Origin: Eledone cirrhosa | Taxonomy: Eukaryota | DNA: 64,000 bases | NCBI GenBank assembly: GCA_964016885.1 | Contig: OZ024740.1 | Span: 412,486,001-412,550,000 of the forward strand | Reading direction: 5' to 3' | Shown: one piece after another, positions 7,002 through 64,000 of the stretch | How the letters are laid out: each line of letters begins with the position of its first letter | Position numbering within the stretch: the first letter of the stretch is position 1 | Notes under the pieces: generated by a model | Databases searched by the model: none | Told to the model about the DNA's origin: nothing | The model's input: only the letters and a program-made list of their open reading frames with translations | Translations under genes and position numbers: made by a program

Positions 7002-7804
7002 GTTTTGACCTGTTTAGCTTGATTTGGTTTGAGGCTTGGGTGGTTAATGCCTTCTTGAGCACCTTTTCAGTTTTGTATGGTTTCTTAACACATTGTTTAG
7101 ATCTGGTTTTTAAATATTGATCACTTTGCCAGTATGATTTCTGATTTTTGCGTTTCGCTTCGCTTTTCCTGCCCGCCGAAATGCGATTCTCGCTGAATCT
7201 TTATTTGTATTAATCTCCTGTGTCTTACAATTAACTTTTTAATAATTTCTATTGACAGGTTAATTGTATAAGTTTATTTTAAAACCACTCTGTTGAGAAC
7301 TTATTCGATTTGTGCTATTTATGCTATTTTTTGCAAGGATTTACACTGACTGAATTACTTTGCCAAAATATGGGGTTATTCCCAGTGGTTTAACTTACCA
7401 CCGTGTCATTCACTTATATGGTACAGAGCGAAATACCTGTTGATAACGTGATATTCCTTGTTCGATCATTATACCGAAAGCTTATATTTTTAAGCAGACC
7501 GTATTTTGATTTAGGTGTCACAGAAACTCTACATCGGATTTTAACAGCAATTCCGGGAGTCCAGGTCTGGTTATCATTTATTTTTTATCATTTATTTCGT
7601 TTTGACCTGTTTAGCTTGATTTGGTTTTGGGCTTGGGTGGTTAATGCCTTCTTGAGCACCTTTTCAGTTTTGTATGGCTTCTTAGCACATTGTTTAGCTC
7701 TGGTTTTTAACTATTGAGCACTTTGCCAGTATCATTTCTGATTTTTGCGTTTCTCTTCGCTTTTCCTGCCCGCCGAAATGCGATTCTCGCTGAATCTTTA
7801 TTTG

Positions 7805-7806
<2 letters not shown>
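7002..7806. mobile_element. Unclassified element with ~208-bp terminal direct repeats (unit ~597 bp)
   Basis: 7002-7209 is nearly identical to 7599-7806; homologous to 44114-44934; right end abuts (TA)n. Confidence 0.7.
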
Positions 7807-7897
<91 letters not shown>

Positions 7898-7909
7898 GTA
7901 TATATATAT

Positions 7910-8513
7910 TCCCACGACTCCACCCGGCTCTCATCTTGTTCCCGTTCCCGCTGCAACACTTGTCCCTTTATTTCCACCCTCACCACTCTTACAGGCCCTA
8001 CGGGTCTTTCCGTATCCGCCATTTCTTTACCTGCACATCCACCCACGTTGTTTATGCCCTCCGGTGTTCCCTTTGCGAGTCTTTGTATATCGGACAAACG
8101 GGACGCCGTATGGCGGTCCGTTTTGCCGAACATTTGAGGGTCATACGACTCGGTTTGGATGTACCTTTCGCCGTCATTTCTGTTCTCCTGGTCATCCTTC
8201 CCTACATGTTTCAGTCCTGGGTGTCCTTTTACATCACAGGTCCGCGCACCAGGACTGAACAAAGTCTGATTCACCGTTTTGGGTCCTATTCCCCTCTTGG
8301 CCTCAACTCATCCCCAAATGTACTTTAATACTCCGTCCATTATCACACCCCTAGTTTCCTATCACTTACTCTTTGCTCATAGCTTAGTAGTTACATGCAC
8401 ACACACTCTTTTACTCACATATACACACATATCTCTTCTTAGCTTCGTACGGACCCAATAATAATACACACACAGAGACACGCACACGCACACACACACA
8501 CGCGCACACACAC

Positions 8514-25089: not shown

Positions 25090-26665
25090 TATCCTAAGGC
25101 ATTCGGAGAAAACACGTTTTTTGACGAACATTCCTTTCCCGGGGTATAGAAGGAAGGATAGACAGCATGGTGGTCATACCCATACAATCCAACTTAAAGG
25201 TCAAGACTTTATTGTTGATAATCGTTGGATTGTTCCATACAACCCTTTCCTTCCATTAGGATATCAGTGCCACATCAACTGTTAGGTTGACCATAGTGTC
25301 AAGGCTGTTAAGTACTTATATACATACATCACAAACGGATTAGACAAGATCACTTTCACTATTCAGGATGATCAAGGAAATTGTGTCCATGCCCAAAATA
25401 AGATTGTGACTTATTCATGGTATTCTGAAAAAAGACAGTTTGCAAACTACCTTCTTGATGTGGGAAACGGTAACATTCCAACTGTACCAAATTCCGGCAC
25501 CTTAACAATTCCTCTGCCAAGCAAACCTTGTCTGGAATATGGTAATGTGTCGGGTCTATTTGATTTTGTGTATACAAATCTTCCAGGAAACTACTCAAAC
25601 CCACTATCGCTTGCAAATAGAGCCATTATCACTGCAATAAATAATGCAGCAATATTGATGAATGAGTTGAAGTTCAACAGGTTCGCTGGTCATGAAATAA
25701 TCTACAGAAGCTCCGATACAGTAGATAATGATTGCAATATCCAATCGAATTCATCAACAAACTTATCCAAACAGGCTTCCTAACACACGTATTTAAGCTT
25801 AAGAAAGGTAGTTGGATCATGCTTCTAATAAATGTGGATACTCTAAACGGGCATTTCAATGGTACACGCTACGTCATCATTTGTTTGCATAATAATGTAA
25901 TTGAAGCTGAAGTGGCGTTGGGTCCCAATGCTGAAACTAGGCTGCTAATTCTAAGGATATCACCTGTGTCACAAGAGCTTGAGTACCCTTTCACTTTTAC
26001 TCGCAAACAATTTCCTGTCAAACCAGCCATTGCCCTTACATGCAACAAGGCACAGGAGAAGACATTTAAAAAGATAGGTGTATATCTACCAACACAATTC
26101 GTCTAACATAGTCAGATGTATGTTGCCTTATCAAGAGTTACAAAAAATTGAAAATATAAAAATATAAATTGAAAGGAGTCTGTTTGCTGACAACTGTGTC
26201 TACAAAGAAATTATTCAAATGCATTTCAGGTTCTTTCTAATTGCTAGAAAAGGGACACTACAAAAACCATAAGAAGCCTATATGTGAATAGAGTACAACA
26301 ACAATATAACGAAGGACAACTCTTCAATTGGTAAATGTAATTCATTCATTCCCACCAGCAGCATCTATTTTCAAAGGCTTGAAGCTTCCCATCGATATTC
26401 TCAAGTGATGATTCATGAACATTTTCCGTCAAGAGTTTCTTCGATTTTCCATCTTCATTATCGCCTTTTTTTAAATGTATCATGGATTACTTTATTGATT
26501 ACAGAAGTAAGTGTAACACAGTTTTTGTTAAATTTATATGCATATTGTCAATTTACTTTTCAATTTACGTAACATATCTATATGCATATATATTTGCGTA
26601 TGATATCAATATACACACTACATATGCTAGCAGAAAACCGTCCAAAGGGTGGTTCTTCTGCTTGT
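25090..26665 (+). mobile_element. Degenerate Helitron (Rep C-terminus, Pif1-like helicase, 3' hairpin)
   Basis: DNRWIVPYNP..CHIN..VKAVKYLYTY; FANYLLDVGNG; NGTRY; RKQFPVKPAIALTCNKAQ; QMYVALSRV; terminal hairpin at ~26630-26661. Confidence 0.92.
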
Positions 26666-32858: not shown

Positions 32859-34730
32859 ATGATAATAAAATTGAAGACTAAAATCCATAGAGGGCTCGAT
32901 AAGGAAAGTATATATCAAATATATAAGAACCGTAGAGCAAATATTTATTAAAATAATAGATTAAAGTTTAAGCAAAGAATCGCTGCTGTCACCCTTAACG
33001 GGATCTTCTGAAACTAACAAAGTCAAACTGTGAACGCGGAAGTGAATATTTCCAAAAACGTTGCAACCGGAGGAAGACAGGAAGACGATACTTTGGTTCG
33101 TGGAAACGTTCCCTGGCAAAGAACGGGAATAAACGAATATAATACGTCAAATGTGGTTTTGTCTTTGCGTGTAACTGTTTTTCACCGCTCCAAATAATTG
33201 TTTCTATTTTAGGCTACGACTCCTAACCTTGCACATAACATCACAGCTTCAAATTTAGCTAAACTACCTAGCCGTAGGAACACGTGCAACCCTGTAGTTA
33301 GTACTAACTGTAATTGTAGGAATCGGGCTGATTGCCCCCTATCCGGGAAATGCATCTTAGTAACATTGTCTACATGTAAGGTTGTAACACCCACGTCCCG
33401 TAGGGCCTACATAGGGTTAACCGCCAATAGTTTCAAGCAGCGTCTTTACATGCATAACCATTCTTTTCGTTACCCTCTAAGAAGGAGTATGACGTCACTT
33501 TCAGCTTATATCTGGAGTCTAAAAGACAACCACACCCAATATAAGTTACACTGGGAGATCCTAGCTAGGGCTAGATCGTATAACGGAAATAAAAGACCAT
33601 GTGACCTCTGCGCCGCTGAGGCCCTGGAAATACTCTACGTTACAGACCACATCTTAAACCAAAAATCTGAGGCAATTTCGGCTTGTAAACATAAATTGCA
33701 CAAAACTTTCCTGTATTACAGCCCCACGGATAGCACGATCTATACGTGGATATTTTACGTCTTGATGTGGGAGCTAAGTATATGTTTTGTTTATTCCTTT
33801 ACTTATTTGCATAGGTAAGTATATATTACCCGTATGTTTTGTGAAGGTATGTATACCTTCTCGTACGTATATTTGACTGTTATAGCGTATACTTTTTATA
33901 TATTCTGGTATTTAGGGTTTGGCTATGCGTATACGGGAGTTTTGCGTCCGCGTGAGTGTGCAGGTTCGTACGTATGGTGGGTGTGTGTATATGTGTACTT
34001 CTTGTTTTAGTTGACTTACGTCTCCGAACATTCGTGTATTTATATGTAGGTATGCGTGTGCGCTTGTTATATACGTATTTATTTACTTATATACGTTTAT
34101 ATAATTATTTATTTATTTGTACACAAGCGTACACACACACATATTTATATGTGCGTGGTTTAGTATACCCATGGAAAGGTTTTGCGTATGCTTGTGTATG
34201 TACGTATCTGTTTGCGTGTATGTATTTATTTGTTTCTATTACTTCTGTATTGTATTTATTTACTTTGTTCTTAACTCTGTAGCGGAGATTCATTTGGTCT
34301 CCTAGTTAGAATTTTAGTCTACGATTTCTGCTATACCATTTAAGTGGTTTTGTGTTTGCGTGCTATTGTTCTCCACGCTCCACATATGACTTATTATCTT
34401 CGTTTTTTCGTTCATTGCCAGAGAACGTCTCTATGCACCACCTAAGAGAACATTAGTCTAGGACCTCTTTTATACCATAAACGTGGTTCTGTCTTTGTGC
34501 GTAATTGTTTTTCACCGCTCCTATTAATGACGTATTATTCGTTTTTTCCCGTTCTTTGCCAGCGAACGTCACCATGAACCAAAGTATCGTCTTCCTGTCT
34601 TCCTCCGGTTGCAACGTTTTTTGAAATATCCAGTTCTGCGTTTACAGATTGACTTTGTTAGTTTCAGAAGATCCCGTTAAGGGTGAAAGCAGCGATTCTT
34701 TGCTTAAACTTTAATCTGTTCAGAAACGAA
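32854..34730 (+). mobile_element. Naiad-type PLE (family A): GIY-YIG remnant flanked by inverted pLTR arms
   Basis: CNCRNRADCPLSGKC; AYIGLTANSFKQRLYMHNHSF...TSLSAYIWSLK...WEIL...CDLC (33309-33725); inverted arms ~32957-33149 / 34528-34720. Confidence 0.9.
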
Positions 34731-39669: not shown

Positions 39670-41057
39670 CGTAAACAAAAATATTCCTATTACACCAAAC
39701 AACCGAAAAACCACAACAACTATTACTACACCTTCTATGACCAATGTTATCAACCCACATATGAATACCAAGCACTCAAAATCTCATAATCTACCCAAAA
39801 ATAACACCAAATACAACCACGATGATTTACCAAATTCCACAAATAAGGATACTAACCATAGGAACTCTTCTAGAACACAACACAATAATATAAGGGATAA
39901 TAAAAACTTAACTAAAAACCGCAAAAGAAACATAACATGGTAGATCGAACCCTGCAAACTATTGGACAAATCACCAAAAAATTATTTGAAATACTACATA
40001 AACATTTTCCACCAAACCACAGATACCACCAAATATTTAACAAATATACTGTTAAATTCTCATACTCTACATCAAACAATCTCAAACAAAAAATAAGCGA
40101 CTACAACATTTATAAACTTTAAAATAATATGACTACACCAACGCAACAAAATTTAAATAGGACTGCACCTTTTAAAAAGACAAATAATACAATCCTTCAA
40201 CCTAGAAAACACAACCACCCAAATCACCAACACAGAAACAACAGAACACACAATTACAATACAACTCTAGCACCAAACCACCCACAAAGCAACCTTCATT
40301 CTCCTGCTATCATTAATTACAATAGGAATAGCTCAAGGATAAATGAGAATAGTATAGGCACCCATCAAAACCATCTTACGTATGGCTGTCATTGCAGAAA
40401 TAGAAGCATTTGCCCCTTAAATGGAAACTGTTTGATTAATAATATAGTATATAAATGCACTCTGTCTACTACAGACTCCAACAAAACATATATAGGATCT
40501 ACATCAAACACATTTAAGAAAACATTTTACGCACACTCTAGTAGTTTCAACAATACTAACCTAGTAAACACCACATCTCTATCTGAAGCGGTAAATAATT
40601 ATAAAAAGAAAAAAATAGATTTTAAGTTATCGTGGAACACCATTCTACAAAAAACTCCATATCTTGGAAACAGGAGGGAATGCGGATTATATTCAGGAGA
40701 GATCTGGAAATTACTAAATCTAAGGACGATTTATTAAATAAAAGATATGATTTGATCATAGTCTGTAATCACCGTATACGAAAAACATTTAAATACTATA
40801 AACCTAATTAAATACTATAAAACTAATTAAATATTCTAAATAGCAAATCACTATAATTCCGTATAGAATAACATTTATTAGTACCTCTTACCCCTAATTA
40901 TATGCTTTCATGCTTATTTTTGCCTTTTAATGTTTTAGCTTCCTTAGATTTATGCATTAATGACTAAAGGCAGCAATATACACAGCCACCCGTAATTGCA
41001 TGAGTGAAAATAAACATCTATGTATGATATGGAAATATATTTATGTGTGTATATATT

Positions 41058-53399: not shown

Positions 53400-55980
53400 C
53401 ATACAGTAGACGAAGACAGTAAAAAATAGGAAAACAATAACAAGAAACAAGAAAAATACAAGAATGAAAATTCCCCAATAGGAGCGATAACCACCCAGGG
53501 TTCACTCAGGTACCTCACAAATCCTGAAACACCCGATGCTTCGAGGGCACCCGGGAAGGGCAGCCCTCTCCTCCAAATATTCACCATCCTACAGGCGCAT
53601 GATCATAATAGGCCCACTCACCACAGTCACCCACCTTTCAGCAAATGTATGGTGGGGGGGTTCAACACTTCTCTCTCCACCTTCACCTTCTTTTCCAAGG
53701 GAAATTAAAAAAGATTGATGAGGGATTAGTCAAAGAGAAAAGGGTCCTTTCAACCTGCTTCAACATACAACCTCTTTCCCTACTGCCACCAGACAGAGGG
53801 TAATTACCTGCTCTTCCTGGCCAAAATAAGGCGGTGGGTCGATCTTCACTATGGACTTGGCCGATAGCCAGATTCTTCTACACGCCACAGCAGCTGTTCG
53901 ACATAACTCCACAAGTCACTACACGGACACTGGACGAGTCCGTGCAGAACGGTTTCGCATCTCGAGCAGGTCCGTGTGACAGCACTTGCGTGCCTGTAGA
54001 GTTTACTTCGAACTGGTGGTGCGCCCCGGTAGCAAGCGAGGGATTTCTGGAAATTATCCATCGTTCCCGGCTCGAAAGTCCTACGGAACAGACTGGTTAG
54101 TTCGACTTCGTCGACGCCCAGAGCATCTCCGAGTGCGTCATCGCTCTTGACCACAACTAATCCTCTATTGAACTCGAGAGCGGAGGTTCCACTGACCGAA
54201 CTGCCCGCCTGCTAGAGAGCAGTGCGTCCCTGGCAACATTGCCAGTCACCCAGTCTCGATCTTTTCTTGATCCAGGACTGCAGCTAAATCAATCAGACGA
54301 GCTGCGGAAAGGCGACCATACCTCTTCTCCCTTTACGCAGAATATATGGAGATGCCACAGCCTCAGCACATGCCCAGCCCTCGGCGTAGAGTGTGCAGGC
54401 AGTAGATGGACCGCCTCACCAACGGAACATGTCCAATCCGCGAGAGTTTGAAGAGGAGCCGTTCCAACTTGGTGAGGGGCGGACGGGGGCAAGGCACAAC
54501 GGTCAGGTGGTAGTAGATGACGGATGCGATGTACGCATTCGCAACCTCCGCCAGAAATTTCATTTCAGTGATTGCTTCCTCGCAGCCCATTTCTGGTTGA
54601 GACTGGCTACCCTGCCCATCAATTCGTCCCAATTCTTATCCACCTGGAGGTCTGGTCCGAATAAAACCAAGAACAACTTTACCGCTCCATCCGGCCAGCG
54701 CCCAACGATACTGTTGGACTTGCATGGAAACGCCTCTCCAGGTACCTAGCTGCAAGCCCACTGACTATTCAAGGTTAAGTTTCGCTCCCGTCAACCTTTC
54801 ATATCCCTTCAATAAGGTGCTGATCATCTCGAGTTCCGAGGTATCCGACACCAACACGGTGATGCATTCCGCCTAAGCCGACACAGCTCTTCTGCGTTCC
54901 AGTTCGAGCGGAATGCACTGGAACGGTTGCAGCTTCCGCAGTAAAGAATCAAGAGTGAATATGTACAGAAGGGAGGAGATAGGGCCCCCTTGACGGACTG
55001 ATCGTGAGATCTGAAAGGATCATTAACTTTGACCACCGAGCAGATGCTACTTTGCATAGCAGTGATCCAGCTTCTGAAGAGGAAGCCAAAGCCAGCTGCC
55101 TTGATGACAGCCTCCAGGTACCGATGGTGACATTATCGAATGCTTACGAATAATCTAAATTGAGCCCACGGAACCCAGGTTTACACCCATCCGGCTCTAT
55201 GATGCAATGCATGAGGTGGAGGCTTTCGTGTATGGACCTGGTCGGGATTGTCGAAATTTGCACCTCCTCAACCAAATCCTCGGCGACAAGCGCCAGCCTC
55301 TTCACTAACACGTTGGCCAAAATATTAATCTCTGAGTTGCGCAGAGTTATGGGCCTGAAGTTATCTAATGTGTCCCTCTTGTACAAGTCTTTCCTCATCA
55401 GTGTCACTACGCTCCGGCTCGCTTTCTGTAATCAGCTCCTAACCGACGCGTCTTATCTTGGTCGACCATACAGATCACAAACTTGTGATCTGAGTAGGTG
55501 ACCATTTTAAAGCGTGCACAACCTACACTATTTCTATCTATTTTCCTAATGAATATCCTGTCTATATACGATCTAGGTGACACTATGTGCTTGGTCTGGG
55601 TCAACACTGACGCATTAGGGAAATCTTGTGGGAACTCGCTGATCAGGTACTTGAGAATTATGAACCACCACCCTCTCCTATCGACTACTCCCACACAATC
55701 CCAGCCTCCGTCTAAGATGCCGTTCCAATCCCCCACTAACAGTAAAGGGCGAGACGCACCCAGAAAACTGTCCAGGCGTTTAAAGAAATCTGGTCGTCCG
55801 CCCCCGGATGTGGCGTAGACGGCCATCAATCTAAAGGCACCACGTTCACTATTGTTCTCGTCCAGGACAACCAACTTACCATCCTGGTCCCGGAAGATAA
55901 ACCTTACCTCGAGATCCATGTCTTTCCTATACAGCACTGCCACCCCACATTTCATTCCCGGTCGATTAACAAATGAAAAA
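53400..55980 (-). mobile_element. Tx1/L1-clade LINE ORF2 relic (APE, RT, zinc finger) with internal deletions
   Basis: APE: GVAVL, LVGDWNGILD, IDRIF, SDHK; RT: NFRPITLRNSEINILANVL; C-terminal TCSRC.ETVLHGLVQCP. Confidence 0.9.
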
Positions 55981-57022
55981 ATCTGATTTAGTTTGATTTA
56001 GTAATACTATTTATGCCTTCCTTTACGTAAATGTTTATTTTTACGCTGAAAGCTTTCATGATGGATATTCTGTTGCATTTTTTTCGGTTGCATAATAGTT
56101 TATTCGAGATTTTGAATTCAATTACAGTCCCCAACATAGAAAAAGTATACAAATATCAACACTAATCTAAACGTCATTTTGTAATTTCTCACCGAACACA
56201 CTCAAGAACTATGTCCTTATTAGTTAGATTTCTTTATGAGGCATTCCAGAATATTTACCGTAACGCTTTTCATTTTTTTTTTCTTTTTTTCTGCTTACTT
56301 CTTGAAAATATGATTTTAACGAGGTTTTGATTTAAAGAATTGCTCTCTAAATCCTTTTCATAAATGTTTTCTGGTGTATTTGTGAATCGATTCTATAATT
56401 TGATCAAACAATTATCGTTAGATACATTATTTGGAGAAGAAAAAACATTCGTTATTATAGAAATATAAGATATTCACTTTCTCACCTCAGTTGAAATACT
56501 AAAAATGAGAATATGCAAAACCTATACTGTTTCATGAGATAAGATATAAACACGTATGAAGTTTTACAAGTAATAATCAATAAAGAACTCCACTTTCTAT
56601 TCTTAGATTCTCATTATTTCATAGACCTTAAAGAATCCTTAAAGAATCAACTTAATTGTTACAGTCTGTTTGTCTAAAAAAGTGAGAGTGATTTGTTTTC
56701 TGTTCAGCGTCTATTCTGTAACGGTTTTATTGATTTTATATGCACAACAATTATCTGGGACAATGTAGCAGTTTATAACTTGGAACAGTGGGAATCATAC
56801 AATTTAGCTAGCAATGATACAAGCAGAGAACATGGGTAATGTTACTTCATAGGTTTGTAATATCGCAAATTATATTCATTTTCAAACAACGATATCAGAA
56901 AGAATATCTCACAATCACCCGTTTTAAGTGATAAATTATTTACTGAAATTTTAATATATCATTATAAAATATCTCATCATATGTATGTTTAACTATAAAC
57001 TTATACCCCAGCCGATTTTAAG

Positions 57023-57493: not shown

Positions 57494-57656
57494 AATATAT
57501 GAACAATCATCTAGTTGTGGAACCAACCAACCAACCGGAAATTTATAAATTCCTAAATTTATGAATTTAATTTATAATAAATTGAAGTGAAGCAGCTGGT
57601 GCGTGTGTTTCTTATTGGCAACATGACCGTCCCAAAGTATAACAATATATATATAT

Positions 57657-58509
57657 ACCAACACCACCACCTTCCAGGGTCCCAACGGCCACTCTCTCTC
57701 GGTCCGGCATGCCTTCCGCTGCACCTCCTCCAACCTAGTCTACGGACTTCGTTGCACGGAGTGCAGCGCGACTTATGTCGGACAGACGGGACGTCGCCTG
57801 GCGGACCGAGTCACGGAGCACCTCCGGGATATTCGTCTCGGGGGCAGTTCCCCCATCGCCCGCCACTTTGGTGGCCCTGGACACTCCGCACGCCATCTCA
57901 CAGTCTGTGGCCTACTCCAGTGCCACGGAACACCCGCCCATCGCCTTACGGTCGAACAACGCACTATCTTCATCTTACAGACCCACACTCCCTCCGGCCT
58001 GAACTCCCCACCCTTATTCCTTTAGCGTTCGACCGCCCCCTCCCCCCATACTTATCCCCCACTAACACCACTAACACACCCCTCCTTTTCACCGCCCACC
58101 CCACACTAACAATACTAACACCTCCACTCCACCCCTCATCTGACCACCCTTCCCCAACTAACATACTAACATCCCTTCCCTCCCCTCTTCTCCTCCTCCC
58201 CCTCTTTATCACACGCACACACGCACCCACTTACACCACCCACCCCACACGCAACTAACATCACTAACACCCTCCAACCCCACGCACACGTACCCACACA
58301 CCCTCGTACACTACCAACTCTACACACCTACCCCCACTAACCCCCACTCACACCTGCATTCCACCCCTCCCCACCTCCCGTATACTAACACCCACTAACA
58401 CCTCTTCACCAAACTACACACACACCAGTACACCACACTCCCTCCATAGAACCACACACACCCTTCTCTCCCCGCTCCACACTCACTCATCCCACTAACA
58501 CCCCTACTA

Positions 58510-58558
<49 letters not shown>

Positions 58559-59520
58559 CCTCACTCCAACTCTCACACCTACCCATCCTCGCCTCCCTAC
58601 CATTCCGCCGACTGCTGCTATGCCCTTCCGACTACATCTCAGCACCAACTGACCACAGCACTCCCACTGCTGACCACTTCCTGTTGCGCGCACACCCCAC
58701 ATCTCTCCTCTTCCGACCACCGCTTCTTGGATTACCCACACGCGAAATTGACTTCTAACCAAAATCTCCAAACATCCGTGGAACTTACCAACTTTTCAAC
58801 CATCCTCTTACACCATCACCTATATAACTCACCCACACACACACCCCAACAACAATTTTTTTTATCCACACGCCACCCACACCCACAACACGCTTAAACC
58901 ACACACACGTGCTTCCCACCACATATTTACACCCTCAGCCTCCTGATTCCTCTCCCCCCCACCCCCTATCCACACACGCACAGAAACTCCGACCCACAAA
59001 AACACCCCCCACACACACCTTCCTGAACATGCAACCCCGTTCTTCCCCCAACCCTCACTTTCACATACACACACACACACACGCACACCTAACCACACAC
59101 ACCACCTTCAGCCCTCCCCGCTCGGACACCCCGTCTCCCTCTCCCCACTCCACCCGCCACCACCCCTACTCACCGCACACCCTTCCACCACCTGTTTACC
59201 TCCCTTTTAATTTCAGTTTATTTTGATCATGCCTTTATTTTTAAATTTTCTCATTCCTTGTATTTTGATCATGCTTTATTTTTATTTATTATATTTTTTG
59301 TCTTTATTTGTTAATTTTTCATTCGCACCGTTTCCTTTCGCTATATGTCTCTCCACCACTCCCCTACACACCTTTTGAACTCTGTTCCCACACACTTCTC
59401 ACCTGAAGAAGGGCTTATGCCCGAAACGTCGTCCCCCACCTACCCCCCACTCACCTGAGCGTGAATTTAATAAACATTTATCGTACTGCCTCTCTGTTCT
59501 GTCCCTGTTCAATTATTCAT
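57657..59520 (+). mobile_element. PLE with CCHH-type GIY-YIG, a C/A-rich 3' region and an HHR
   Basis: NLVYGLRCTECSATYVGQTGRRLADRVTEH...PIARHF...EQRTIFILQTHTPSGLN; HHR at 59401-59432. Confidence 0.9.
59401..59432 (+). ncRNA. Minimal HHR motif
   Basis: CTGAAGA-A-GGGC(ttat)GCCC-GAAA-CG-TC. Confidence 0.75.
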
Positions 59521-60537: not shown

Positions 60538-60611
60538 AAACATACGTATATTATATAGGTTTATATATATATATATATTACTATGTAATAAACAACATAA
60601 GGCAATTATTC

Positions 60612-60665
60612 CATTTACCAGTGGTTTCTTAAAAGCAAAAGGTTTTGCTTTCAATCCTCAGAATG
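60612..60665 (-). ncRNA. Intact HHR motif (pLTR copy 1)
   Basis: CATT-CTGAGGA-TTGAAAGCAAAA(cc)TTTTGCTTTTAA-GAAA-CCACTGG-TA^AATG. Confidence 0.85.
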
Positions 60666-60821
60666 AAAAAATCCTGGTTTGTTTATTGAATTTTGATTTT
60701 AAAAACAAAAATGCAATCTATATGAAAGTGAGGCTGGGGAAGGAAGAAGGAAAGGAAAAATAAAATAAAACTACACATGCAAACACACACACAAAAAACC
60801 CCACAAAAGCATACATACACG

Positions 60822-60893
<72 letters not shown>

Positions 60894-60980
60894 CACATAT
60901 ATATACATACACATATATGCACATACACATACATACACATAACCTCATACATACACACACACACACACATATACACACAC

Positions 60981-61032
<52 letters not shown>

Positions 61033-61441
61033 TCATATATATATACATGTGTGTACAAGCATACACATACACAAACATAGCCATAGACATACACATATAC
61101 ATACATACATTCACACATTCATACATATATACACACGTACATACATACACATACATAAATGCACTCCTCTACATATTCACACACGCAAATAAATATAAGA
61201 AAAAAATAAATATATATTAAACATTTTTGACACCGATACATAAGGCAGCTAACTGGACAGACGCGCGTGGTAAGTAATACACACAAATGCACGTATACAT
61301 ACGTACGAAATAGTAAATACATACACACACTCTCACACATAAATATACATATACAAATACATAAACACATACATACACATACATGCACAAACATGCACAC
61401 GTATACAATATATACACACACATATGTATATGTAATTATAT

Positions 61442-61492
<51 letters not shown>

Positions 61493-61583
61493 AATATAAA
61501 CATACACACACACACACACATATATGTATACATACACACACATATACATACATATATATATACACACGCACATATACACACAC

Positions 61584-61614
<31 letters not shown>

Positions 61615-61759
61615 CAAACATATATATATACATATGCATACACATACACACACACATACATGTGTGTATGTGTAAAACTCAGTCTTAGATAATTCATATG
61701 AACCTTACATATACATATATATAGTAGTAAAGTAATAAAGCAACATAAGGCAATTATTC

Positions 61760-61813
61760 CATTCACCAGTGGTTTCTTAAAAGCAAAAAAATTTTCCTTC
61801 AATCTTCAGAATG
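61760..61813 (-). ncRNA. HHR motif (pLTR copy 2; GUG at the cleavage triplet)
   Basis: Direct repeat of 60612-60665 with CTGAAGA and GTG. Confidence 0.7.
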
Positions 61814-61893
61814 AAAAAAAACCTGGTCTATCCACATATACATACTTATACACACACAAATATATACATATATATACACATACACATACACAC

Positions 61894-61926
<33 letters not shown>

Positions 61927-63306
61927 CATACATATATACATATATATATATACAACAAATATACATACACATACACATAGGTATGTGAACGGCAAGGCAA
62001 AAAATAATATATGGGGGGGGGGGGGGGACATAAGAGAAGGTGAAATATAAGGGGAGGTAAGGGAGAAAAAAAAAGTAAATATACAAGAGTATAGAACGTA
62101 GAATCAGCAAAATAAAAACCGTAGCAGAAGTAAAGAGCAGAGAGGGAGTTCAAGGCGGTTGATTTATCATAGGAGTGTCAATCCAGTTGCAGATCAGATG
62201 CGATTTCAGTTGAGGACAGCATCTGAAGATCTCATTCTTTGAGTTAAGGCAAGCGGAAGTGGCTCTCAAGTTTAGCAAAATCCTATACTTTTCTGTGGTA
62301 CACAAAGAACAATTCTTTGTGCCCCTTTGGTACTCCCTCGAATGGTCTAATATAGACCAAATAATAGAGTACGGGATGTTACTATCCTTGAGTTCCCACA
62401 CCTTACTTGCGAGGGCCGTTGATGTTCGTTTATCGGAGTGCTAAAAAGAAGCGACATGTGAGTAAAATCTGGTTTTAAACCTGTCCTGGGTCATACCGAC
62501 ATATCGCTCACTCCTGGCTGGCTGGTTGTTGATTACCGGTGTTATCTTAGCCTCACAAACGACAGATTTGGTGTTACATTTACCCTGCAATGGGCATTCA
62601 TCCGGCTTCCTGCAACTGCATCCTGGATTTATTCTCGTACGGTTTGAACTGGTTTTGGACTTCATAGATGGGCAACAAGAGTAGCTGATCTTGACTACGT
62701 TCCTATTAAAAATCTTATAATATCTATGATTAGGAGGAAAATGTGTGTCTAATAGTTCAAGGAATTTCCTTCCTACATTAGTTTTGACAGTTAGAGAGAA
62801 GGGGGGTGTGAACCAAATAATCTTCCTTTTCCTGTTATTGTGGTTAGTTTTAGGGGGGGAGTAGTTAAATAAGAATTTTTTTCTGCAAAACCGGTGTTCT
62901 TAAGGGCTTTATTATAATAAGGGGTGGCTTTATTAAAAATGTCCATAGACGAAGATAAGGTAGAAATCCTACGGCTAATGTTAGGAATAAGATTATTAAA
63001 AACTATAGGGGGATGGCAAGACTCTTTGTGTATATACCTAAGATTTTCATTAGGTTTATGATAGGGTTTAAAAGAGGCAGTAAGTAGATCAAGATTAATA
63101 TCAAGAAAGTTAGCATTAGTATGGTTCGTATCTATAGTAATTTAAGGTTAAGACTAGCAAAAGTATTGATTAAATCTTTACGGAATTTATCAAGGTTATG
63201 GCCGTTGGTGGTATGAGAAACTGCTAATCCGTCATCACGGTATAAACCGATATTATGGGACGGGAATTTCTCTTTGAGGGTGATGACGGATTAGCAGTTT
63301 CTCATA

Positions 63307-64000
63307 CTGCTAATCCGTCATCACCCTCAAAGACAAATTCCCGTCCCATAATATCGGTTTATACCGTGATGACGGATTAGCAGTTTCTCATACCACCAAC
63401 GGCCATAACCTTGATAAATTCCGTAAAGATTTAATCAATACTTTTGCTAGTCTTAACCTTAACATTACTATAGATACGAACCTTACTAATGCTAACTTTC
63501 TTGATATTAATCTTGATCTACTTACTGCCTCTTTTAAACCCTATCATAAACCTAATGAAAATCTTAGGTATATACACAAAGAGTCTTGCCATCCCCCTAT
63601 AGTTTTTAATAATCTTATTCCTAACATTAGCCGAAGGATTTCTACCTTATCTTCGTCTATGGACATTTTTAATAAAGCTGCCCCTTATTATAATGAAGCC
63701 CTTATGAACAGCGGTTTTACAAAAAACAATTCTTATTTACCTACTCCCCCCCCCCCTAAAACTAACCACAATAACACGAAAAGGAAGATTATTTGGTTCA
63801 CACACCCCTTCTCTCTAACTGTCAAAACTAATGTCGGAAGGAAATTCCTTGAACTATTAGACAAACATTTTCCTCCTAATCATAGATATTATAAGATTTT
63901 TAATAGGAACATAGTTAAGATCAGCTACTCTTGTTGCCCATCTATGAAGTCCAAAATCACCAGTTCAAACCGTGCGAGAATAAATCCAGGATGCAGTTGC
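63307..64000 (+). mobile_element. Inverted (head-to-head) copy of the same PLE RT, running off the window
   Basis: IGLYRDDGLAVSHTTNGHNLDKFRKDL...NFLDINLDLLTASFKPYHKP...SCHPP; reverse complement of ~62611-63297. Confidence 0.92.

What the first reader, a model, noticed from the sequence alone, without database searches (positions are those of the whole stretch)
63225..63393. Palindrome centre records a double snap-back of PLE cDNA at the YRDD codons
Seen: the large inverted repeat is centred on a 9-nt loop (63298-63306). The centre is not contiguous element sequence: 63280-63307 (GTGATGACGGATTAGCAGTTTCTCATAC) exactly copies internal 63366-63393, and both arms include it. Inference: the nascent cDNA 3' end (…GGGTGATGA) annealed to TCATCAC in the same strand, extended ~20 nt, folded back again and copied itself. 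The second arm would then come from self-primed synthesis rather than a second RNA. This points to a hairpin cDNA intermediate in inverted-pLTR formation.
Basis: partly seen in the sequence, partly recalled or inferred. Interest (0 to 1): 0.75.

Follow-up and report, generated by a model that had tools for sequence, protein, structure and literature searches.

The report
Fold-back scar joining twin Penelope copies
This palindrome is two shortened copies of a Penelope-type jumping gene joined head to head, and the small doubly folded-back patch at its centre is real, but it is likely a scar made while two separately started DNA copies were being joined, not the start of one copy duplicating itself, because the right copy carries 70 end bases that the left copy lacks.

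Summary
63280-63307 is an exact copy of 63366-63393, both arms repeat the same fold-back junction, it is unique in the assembly, and short-read contigs of one sample span it. But the loop is 7 nt, not 9, and TCATCAC is not native (0 of 83 other copies): the two turns rest on 3-nt (CAC) and 2-nt (AC) microhomologies. The arms are sister sequences of a Hydra-type Penelope-like element and run 2.7-3.3 kb to the element's 3' end, but the right arm carries a ~70-nt 'tail' that the left lacks, so it cannot be wholly a copy of the left. In 52 of 57 head-to-head insertions of the family one end is tailed and one is not, and five other centres hold local fold-back inserts. Best reading (0.62): two cDNAs primed at the two target ends, joined through a local double fold-back. 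The YRDD position is coincidence. Inverted copies, the one-sided tail and self-priming are in print; this scan already reached the two-primer reading on other DNA of this genome. New here: fold-back scars and tail asymmetry occur in the same insertions.

The parts
60576..63282 (-). Left arm: 5'-truncated Hydra-type Penelope-like element (ORF remnant, 3' UTR, hammerhead-like motif 1, microsatellite-rich spacer, motif 2), ending WITHOUT the tail at a (TA)n run
   Evidence: L031:1576-4282; family coordinate 497
60602..60673 (-). Hammerhead-like motif 2 (CUGAGGA...GAAAC, GUA triplet) of the left arm
   Evidence: motif scan; partial fold; no Rfam hammerhead hit
61750..61821 (-). Hammerhead-like motif 1 (CUGAAGA...GAAAC, GUG triplet) of the left arm
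   Evidence: motif scan; repeat D8
62150..63282 (-). ORF remnant of the left arm (RT from just before YRDD, CxCx5C linker, GIY-YIG-like endonuclease), with frameshifts and a stop
   Evidence: translation; comparison with a 713-residue open frame in L152
63211..63238 (-). Native 28-nt segment (B+C) in the left arm; likely template of the first fold-back
63239..63279 (-). Segment A' (41 nt), the loop of the first fold-back; carries a variant shared by both arms and by none of 82 other copies
63280..63282 (+). Junction 1: 3-nt microhomology GTG/CAC where native antisense sequence ends
63280..63307 (+). 28-nt templated insert (B+C)
63299..63305 (.). 7-nt loop at the palindrome centre
   Evidence: (I3)
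63306..63324 (+). Junction 2 (2-nt AC/GT) and 19-nt back-copy B' that runs through junction 1 into A
   Evidence: (D20)
63322..64000 (+). Right arm (continues past the window to L031:7609), ending WITH the ~70-nt tail at a (TA)n run; holds a nested younger element at L031:6276-6655
   Evidence: family coordinate 570
63362..63373 (+). YRDD codons of the reverse transcriptase

Best explanation
The locus is a head-to-head pair of 5'-truncated copies of a Hydra-type Penelope-like element with a 28-nt and a 19-nt fold-back copy at the centre and a tail on the right arm only, and it likely arose when both ends of a cut (TA)n target primed reverse transcription at two start sites ~70 nt apart and the two cDNAs were then joined through a local double fold-back. 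Steps: (1, inferred) left target end primes at family position ~497, right target end at ~570, probably on one RNA or one source; (2, inferred from shown structure) the left cDNA stops at 63282, its GTG end pairs with CAC 41 nt back and copies 25 nt; (3, inferred, weakest step) it turns again on AC/GT, or via a short detour onto the RNA, and copies B' through junction 1 into A; (4, inferred, invisible in sequence) this sense-strand extension anneals to the complementary right-hand cDNA, which supplies the far part of the right arm and its tail. Whether the element's RT or a host end-joining polymerase made the turns is not resolved.
For: Right arm ends at family position 570, left at 497. 77 of 117 loci have a head-to-head centre; of 57 with both ends in view, 52 pair a tail-less with a tailed end, 3 are short/short, 2 long/long (binomial P = 6e-11 against 0.5); in 32 of 51 other such loci the tail is on the arm with the shorter 5' reach, so neither arm contains the other. 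Second arms that are little more than the tail: L079 (495-570), L099 (493-572), L050 (545-569). Local fold-back inserts at 5 other centres among 62 printed, picked by eye: L057 (13 nt), L058 (16), L122 (34), L135 (32), L053 (228, from a tandem unit); L057, L058 and L053 also have a tail-less first arm and a tailed second arm. Most other centres are blunt or share 1-5 nt, some with direct-repeat inserts (L094, L095). Arms are sisters in 6 of 6 multi-arm loci in the tree (99-100). In vitro, a Poseidon-clade protein cuts and extends both strands, starts at two sites that bound the tail and is predicted to be a dimer (PMC11167929).
Against: The join between fold-back product and second cDNA leaves no mark, so step 4 is not seen. 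Junction 2 has only 2 nt of pairing and its partner would be locked in a 28-bp hairpin (-32.5 kcal/mol); before junction 1 the predicted fold leaves the GTG end unpaired (-7.7 kcal/mol). In 19 of 51 loci the shorter arm is tail-less and lies within the longer one, which pure self-copying also explains; L055 (17-nt loop) looks like such a case. Sisterhood of arms fits one RNA, one source copy, self-copying or gene conversion alike. Arm differences are somewhat rarer near the centre (5/357 vs 33/800, Fisher P = 0.019, counts by hand, test), and one private variant is shared near the centre, both of which a later copying event would also give. End classes were assigned by script and some loci hold nested insertions. 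The in vitro data are from another clade.
Confidence: 0.62

Rival explanations
1. Wholly self-primed second arm: one cDNA folds back twice and copies itself to the end as a hairpin; the tail asymmetry would come from later endonuclease trimming of a hairpin that first had the tail on both arms.
For: Junction 1 is duplicated in both arms and unique in the genome, so at least B' and the start of A were copied in cis. Arms are sisters, and arms of other insertions share private variants along their length (L032 5, L067 4, L084 2, L123 2). Self-priming was proposed for palindromic junctions in PMC3846280 (passage), endonuclease resolution for the tail in PMC8557442 (passage). 19 of 51 loci and L055 are compatible.
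Against: The right arm has 70 nt that the left lacks, as in 32 of 51 other loci; a target-primed cDNA has its 5' end fused to the target and cannot be trimmed afterwards. Most centres would need loops of hundreds to thousands of bases closed by 0-5 nt. The two ends of the tail are RT start sites in vitro (PMC11167929).
Confidence: 0.15
2. Later rearrangement: the insertion first had a simple junction with a 41-nt spacer, and a host replication template switch or hairpin repair later duplicated B'A and shrank the spacer to 7 nt.
For: It gives the same final sequence. Arm differences are rarer in the inner 357 nt (P = 0.019) and the only private variant shared by both arms lies in A. Fold-back inversions of ~5-34 bp form at breaks without any RT (PMC11724301, abstract).
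Against: With strictly private changes the inner/outer contrast is weak (6/713 vs 19/1601). A late copy of ~350 nt should leave several shared private changes; 1 is seen. It needs two cDNAs that ended within 44 nt of each other, whereas simple centres of the family mostly join positions far apart. Similar inserts occur at centres that are not near-perfect palindromes (L057, L058, L122, L135).
Confidence: 0.14
3. Same two-cDNA event, but the first turn is in trans: the left cDNA end primes on the right cDNA, is released after 25 nt, folds back once on itself and then re-anneals, as in synthesis-dependent microhomology end joining (polymerase theta signature recalled, not from a call).
For: Avoids opening a 28-bp cis hairpin before junction 2. 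Direct-repeat inserts copied from the opposite arm occur (L057, L094, L095), and the nested younger element holds a 16-nt centre insert that matches the host element's hammerhead stem ~600 nt away.
Against: Requires the right cDNA to have reached at least the YRDD region. In L057, L058, L122 and L135 the fold-back insert lies far from where the other arm ends and close to the first arm's end, which points to cis.
Confidence: 0.07
4. Artefact: read fold-back or misassembly.
For: Only one sample, possibly the one assembled, shows the centre.
Against: A 125-nt contig identical to 63240-63364, including an arm-specific base, in three runs; arms differ by 3.0% with private changes in each, end at different places and only the right one holds a nested element.
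Confidence: 0.02

Closest known systems
Hydra clade of C-terminal-endonuclease Penelope-like elements (PMC8557442; section 11 and passages read)
   Same: RWK and DKT motifs, CxCx5C linker, CxxC and CxH in the endonuclease, no CCHH, single ORF, hammerhead-like motifs, insertion in (TA)n.
   Different: Unit is ~4.3 kb, longer than the '<3 kb' given, because of a microsatellite-rich 3' part with two hammerhead-like motifs; tail is ~70 nt against the 30-40 bp described for PLEs. No tree with reference Hydra sequences was built.
PLE insertion unit with inverted 5'-truncated copy and one-sided tail (PMC8557442 and PMC3846280, passages)
   Same: Head-to-head truncated copies, tail at one end; PMC3846280 reads palindromes at inverted junctions as self-priming.
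   Different: Here the pairing of one tailed and one tail-less end is counted (52 of 57), and fold-back inserts sit in insertions whose second arm cannot be a copy of the first.
Poseidon PAc in vitro (PMC11167929; abstract, main text and start of methods read)
   Same: Two RT start sites that bound the tail; both strands of an AT-rich target cut and extended.
   Different: Other clade; the text read does not address inverted arms or how two cDNAs are joined.
cDNA snap-back 5' junctions of R2 insertions (PMC11371274, passages)
   Same: cDNA 3' end primes DNA synthesis on itself before the junction is made.
   Different: In R2 the snap-back product joins target DNA; here it likely joins a second cDNA, and the turn is double.
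L1 twin priming (recalled; named in the listing of 10.1101/2021.12.20.472354) and fold-back inserts at breaks (PMC11724301, abstract)
   Same: Both target ends prime and the cDNAs are joined by microhomology; short inverted templated inserts at a joined end.
   Different: L1 twin priming inverts without duplicating (recalled); here both arms copy the same 3' region from two fixed start sites.

Membership tests
Penelope-like element, endonuclease-bearing | Single ORF with RT and C-terminal GIY-YIG endonuclease | tested here: met
   713-residue open frame in L152 with YRDD and VVY...YVG motifs, read by eye; Pfam gave no hit for the two window fragments.
Penelope-like element, endonuclease-bearing | Pseudo-LTR repeats, partial tandems, inverted 5'-truncated copies, one-sided tail | tested here: met
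Penelope-like element, endonuclease-bearing | Hammerhead ribozyme in the pseudo-LTR | tested here: inconclusive
   Core motifs present twice per arm; motif 2 folds partly as expected, motif 1 does not and has a GUG triplet; no Rfam hammerhead match at E up to 1; cleavage untested.
Penelope-like element, endonuclease-bearing | Target-site duplication | tested here: inconclusive
   Both ends lie in (TA)n; none can be discerned.
Hydra clade | RWK motif; DKG modified to DKT | tested here: met
   KRMRWKAM and LSDKTKN in family ORFs; definition
Hydra clade | CxCx5C linker, CxxC and CxH motifs, no CCHH | tested here: met
   CSCRKPDEC, CSLC, CPH in the window's left arm and in family ORFs, read by eye
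Hydra clade | Insertion into (TA)n | tested here: met
Hydra clade | Phylogenetic placement of the RT with described Hydra families | not tested
   No reference sequences fetched; the paper's supplementary consensus file was not read.
Wholly self-primed (hairpin) inverted duplication | Second arm fully contained in the first | tested here: not met
   Right arm has ~70 nt absent from the left.
Wholly self-primed (hairpin) inverted duplication | Arms are sister sequences; junction copied in cis | tested here: met
Twin-primed insertion joined by microhomology | Each arm ends at its own RT start site; centre with short microhomology or templated insert | tested here: met
   that the two ends are RT starts is inferred from another clade
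Twin-primed insertion joined by microhomology | Two priming events in one reaction | not testable with these tools
   needs a transposition assay

The most novel reading that the evidence does not exclude
Penelope-like elements integrate by coordinated twin priming: a dimer primes both target ends at the two edges of the tail on one RNA, the two cDNAs converge, and the element's own RT, turning on 2-3-nt microhomologies between cDNA and RNA, makes the fold-back bridge that splices them. Centres like this one would be direct records of that hairpin intermediate and would reconcile the self-priming and two-start-site views of inverted pseudo-LTR formation.
Probability: 0.3. Interest if true: 0.7.

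Novelty: new variant of a known kind. Interest (0 to 1): 0.45.

Why it matters
How Penelope-like elements make their tandem and inverted structures is named as unresolved in PMC8557442 (passage), and PMC11167929 leaves the steps after priming open. This locus and its family give two countable signatures, strict pairing of a tailed with a tail-less end and short fold-back inserts at the centre, that say self-priming happens but likely as a joining step, and that can be tested with the existing in vitro system. The single locus alone is one more old insertion.

Tried and rejected
Native TCATCAC: absent from 83 of 83 other copies. Special role of YRDD: 1 of 97 arm ends nearby, 3.6 expected (list taken). 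Palindrome extending into host flanks, as from a hairpin-capped chromosome break: arms stop at the element's ends and the flanks differ. The centre as a unit copied around the genome: junction pattern found only here. Arms from different subfamilies: rejected by tree, although by raw distance L033 is closer to each arm (1.9%, 2.6%) than the arms are to each other (3.0%) because both carry private changes. Pfam on the two ORF fragments: no hit. Rfam on L031: only sub-threshold microRNA/snoRNA-like hairpin matches, no hammerhead. Laying X6 and three RAD-seq runs of other samples: no cover across 63310-63329, which shows nothing either way; X1 showed only the native continuation. A k-mer parse of junctions was swamped by microsatellites and replaced. 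L075 and L139 have inserts that do not fit a simple cis fold-back and were left out of the count of five. 15 of 77 centres lay in simple repeats or nested insertions and were skipped; L101 was dropped as a duplicate of L080, L054 merged with L053. Literature searches found no paper that reports paired tailed/tail-less ends or fold-back inserts at PLE centres; the library lacks most subscription papers, including the older Penelope papers, and no supplements were read (those of PMC11167929 and PMC8557442 may bear on start sites and Hydra membership). The 2026 retrozyme preprint (passages) held nothing on this.

Full report
Observation. The 28 bases at 63280-63307 are identical to 63366-63393, and their reverse complement stands at 63211-63238. 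Writing the element in sense as X A B C D, the + strand reads D'C'B'A' | B C | B' A B C D. The innermost loop is 7 nt (63299-63305), not 9. The A'/B junction is present in both arms and a 21-nt pattern across it matches only these two places in the assembly. A 125-nt contig identical to 63240-63364 was found in 3 of 4 runs laid; the three are one sample and may be the assembled one. The arms differ by 3.0% over 1.1 kb, with private changes in each. The centre is real.

Native sequence upstream of A is CTCCACAC-like; TCATCAC occurs in 2 of 85 copies that span the site, the two arms of this locus (0 of 29 other arms). The first turn therefore rests on 3 nt (GTG/CAC), the second on 2 nt (AC/GT). 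The first turn lands in the R codon of YRDD, but only 1 of 97 other arm ends falls within that 86-nt stretch against 3.6 expected, so the position means nothing.

What the element is. The window lies at G000:C1:412486001-412550000 and the query has over 1,250 candidate relatives in the genome. Family copies encode one ORF with RWK, DKT, YRDD, CxCx5C, a GIY-YIG-like motif, CxxC and CxH, the features listed for the Hydra clade of Penelope-like elements (PMC8557442 section 11). Each unit has two hammerhead-like motifs in a microsatellite-rich 3' part; Rfam did not call them and Pfam did not recognise the window fragments. Both arms run from the centre to the element's 3' end, 2.7 kb on the left and 3.3 kb on the right, and end in (TA)n with unrelated flanks.

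Are the arms sisters? Yes. They share the subfamily alleles over the whole ORF remnant, three rare alleles otherwise seen in L033 (one also in L095 and L122) and one variant seen in no other of 82 copies (a 24-nt pattern holding it matches only the left arm). In a tree of 83 segments they form a clade with support 100, as do the arms of 5 of 5 other multi-arm loci. This fits one template but does not tell RNA from DNA.

The decisive asymmetry. In coordinates of L034 minus 3000, the left arm stops at 497 and the right at 570. The simplest parse of the centre makes the left arm the first strand, so the right arm holds ~70 nt that its supposed template lacks. This is the family rule. Of 117 loci, chosen by similarity to ORF queries and not by their ends, 77 have a head-to-head centre; of the 57 with both ends in view 52 pair an end at 492-502 with one at 564-572 (P = 6e-11), and in 32 of the 51 other than this one the tail sits on the arm with the shorter 5' reach, so that neither arm contains the other. 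Some second arms are only the tail or a part of it (L079, L099, L050). One-armed insertions with one visible end split 14 tailed to 13 tail-less. In vitro a Poseidon protein cuts and extends both strands and starts at two sites that bound the tail (PMC11167929). The inference is that both target ends prime, one at each site.

Other centres. Of 62 centres printed (15 skipped), most are blunt or share 1-5 nt; some hold direct-repeat inserts; five besides this one hold a sense copy of the first arm's own sequence before jumping to the second arm: L057, L058, L122, L135 (13-34 nt, from within ~70 nt of the arm's end) and L053 (228 nt) (picked by eye). L057, L058 and L053 have, like this locus, a tail-less first arm and a tailed second arm. 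There the jump to the second arm is visible; here it is hidden because the fold-back copy and the right cDNA are complementary. L055 may be a true wholly self-copied short arm.

Mechanism. Shown: the structure, the two microhomologies, the duplicated junction, sisterhood, the tail asymmetry and its family statistics. Inferred: two primings, the order of the two turns, the final annealing. The weak step is the second turn: 2 nt of pairing to a strand predicted to be in a 28-bp hairpin (-32.5 kcal/mol). A detour onto the RNA followed by a 19-bp fold-back, or a first turn in trans on the other cDNA, gives the same sequence. A later host template switch also does; the slight deficit of differences near the centre (P = 0.019) speaks for it, but strictly private changes show little contrast (6/713 vs 19/1601) and only one shared private change is present.

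Known and new. Inverted truncated copies, the one-sided tail (PMC8557442, PMC3846280; passages), self-priming as a proposal, two start sites, R2 snap-back junctions (PMC11371274, passages) and fold-back inserts at breaks (PMC11724301, abstract) are in print. Five searches found no report of paired end types or fold-back inserts at PLE centres, within a library that lacks most subscription papers. Earlier notes of this scan on other DNA of the same genome reached the two-primer reading; I had stated it before seeing them, and they are not independent support. The addition here is that fold-back synthesis and two-ended priming occur in the same insertions.

Verdict. Observation partly confirmed, interpretation partly supported; a variant of a known structure with a testable bearing on an open mechanism; interest 0.45.

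Noticed in passing
L031:6276-6655 (just past the window end, inside the right arm): A second, very young Hydra-like family (copies 100% identical, 827 candidates; CxCx5C ORF in L174) inserted as a 268-nt head-to-head pair with a ~115-nt tail on one end only. Its centre holds 16 nt that are not native to five family copies checked and match the host element's hammerhead stem.
   Followed up: partly
window 63193-63250, contigs of X4, X5, X7: A contig of another family insertion whose antisense arm is followed by only the last ~20 nt of the tail and then (TA)n (table 7).
   Followed up: no
L075:3641-3700 and L139:4051-4400: Centre inserts that copy sequence just 5' of where the first arm stops (2136-2151 next to 2156 in L075), as if the second RT jumped to the free RNA ahead of the first cDNA; would point to one shared RNA.
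   Followed up: no
window 57581-59520 and L031:7660-8700: Another element with a GIY-YIG fragment (Pfam E = 0.004) and a different hammerhead-like motif lies on both sides of the palindrome in the same orientation.
   Followed up: no
window 33213-33818, 40123-40737, 7794-8328: Further Penelope-like endonuclease fragments of other families by motif; no Pfam hit.
   Followed up: no
window 25286-26106 and 55407-55997: Pif1 2B helicase fragment (E = 3e-10; Helitron-like by recall) and an endonuclease/exonuclease/phosphatase fragment (E = 8e-6; LINE-like by recall).
   Followed up: no
L080, L101 and G000:C2:164252966: The same two-armed insertion appears three times about 70 kb apart, apparently a segmental tandem duplication.
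   Followed up: no
family ORF, reference 2075-2110: An A/C homopolymer stretch between RT and linker is frameshifted in many copies; L152 keeps a 713-residue open frame.
   Followed up: no
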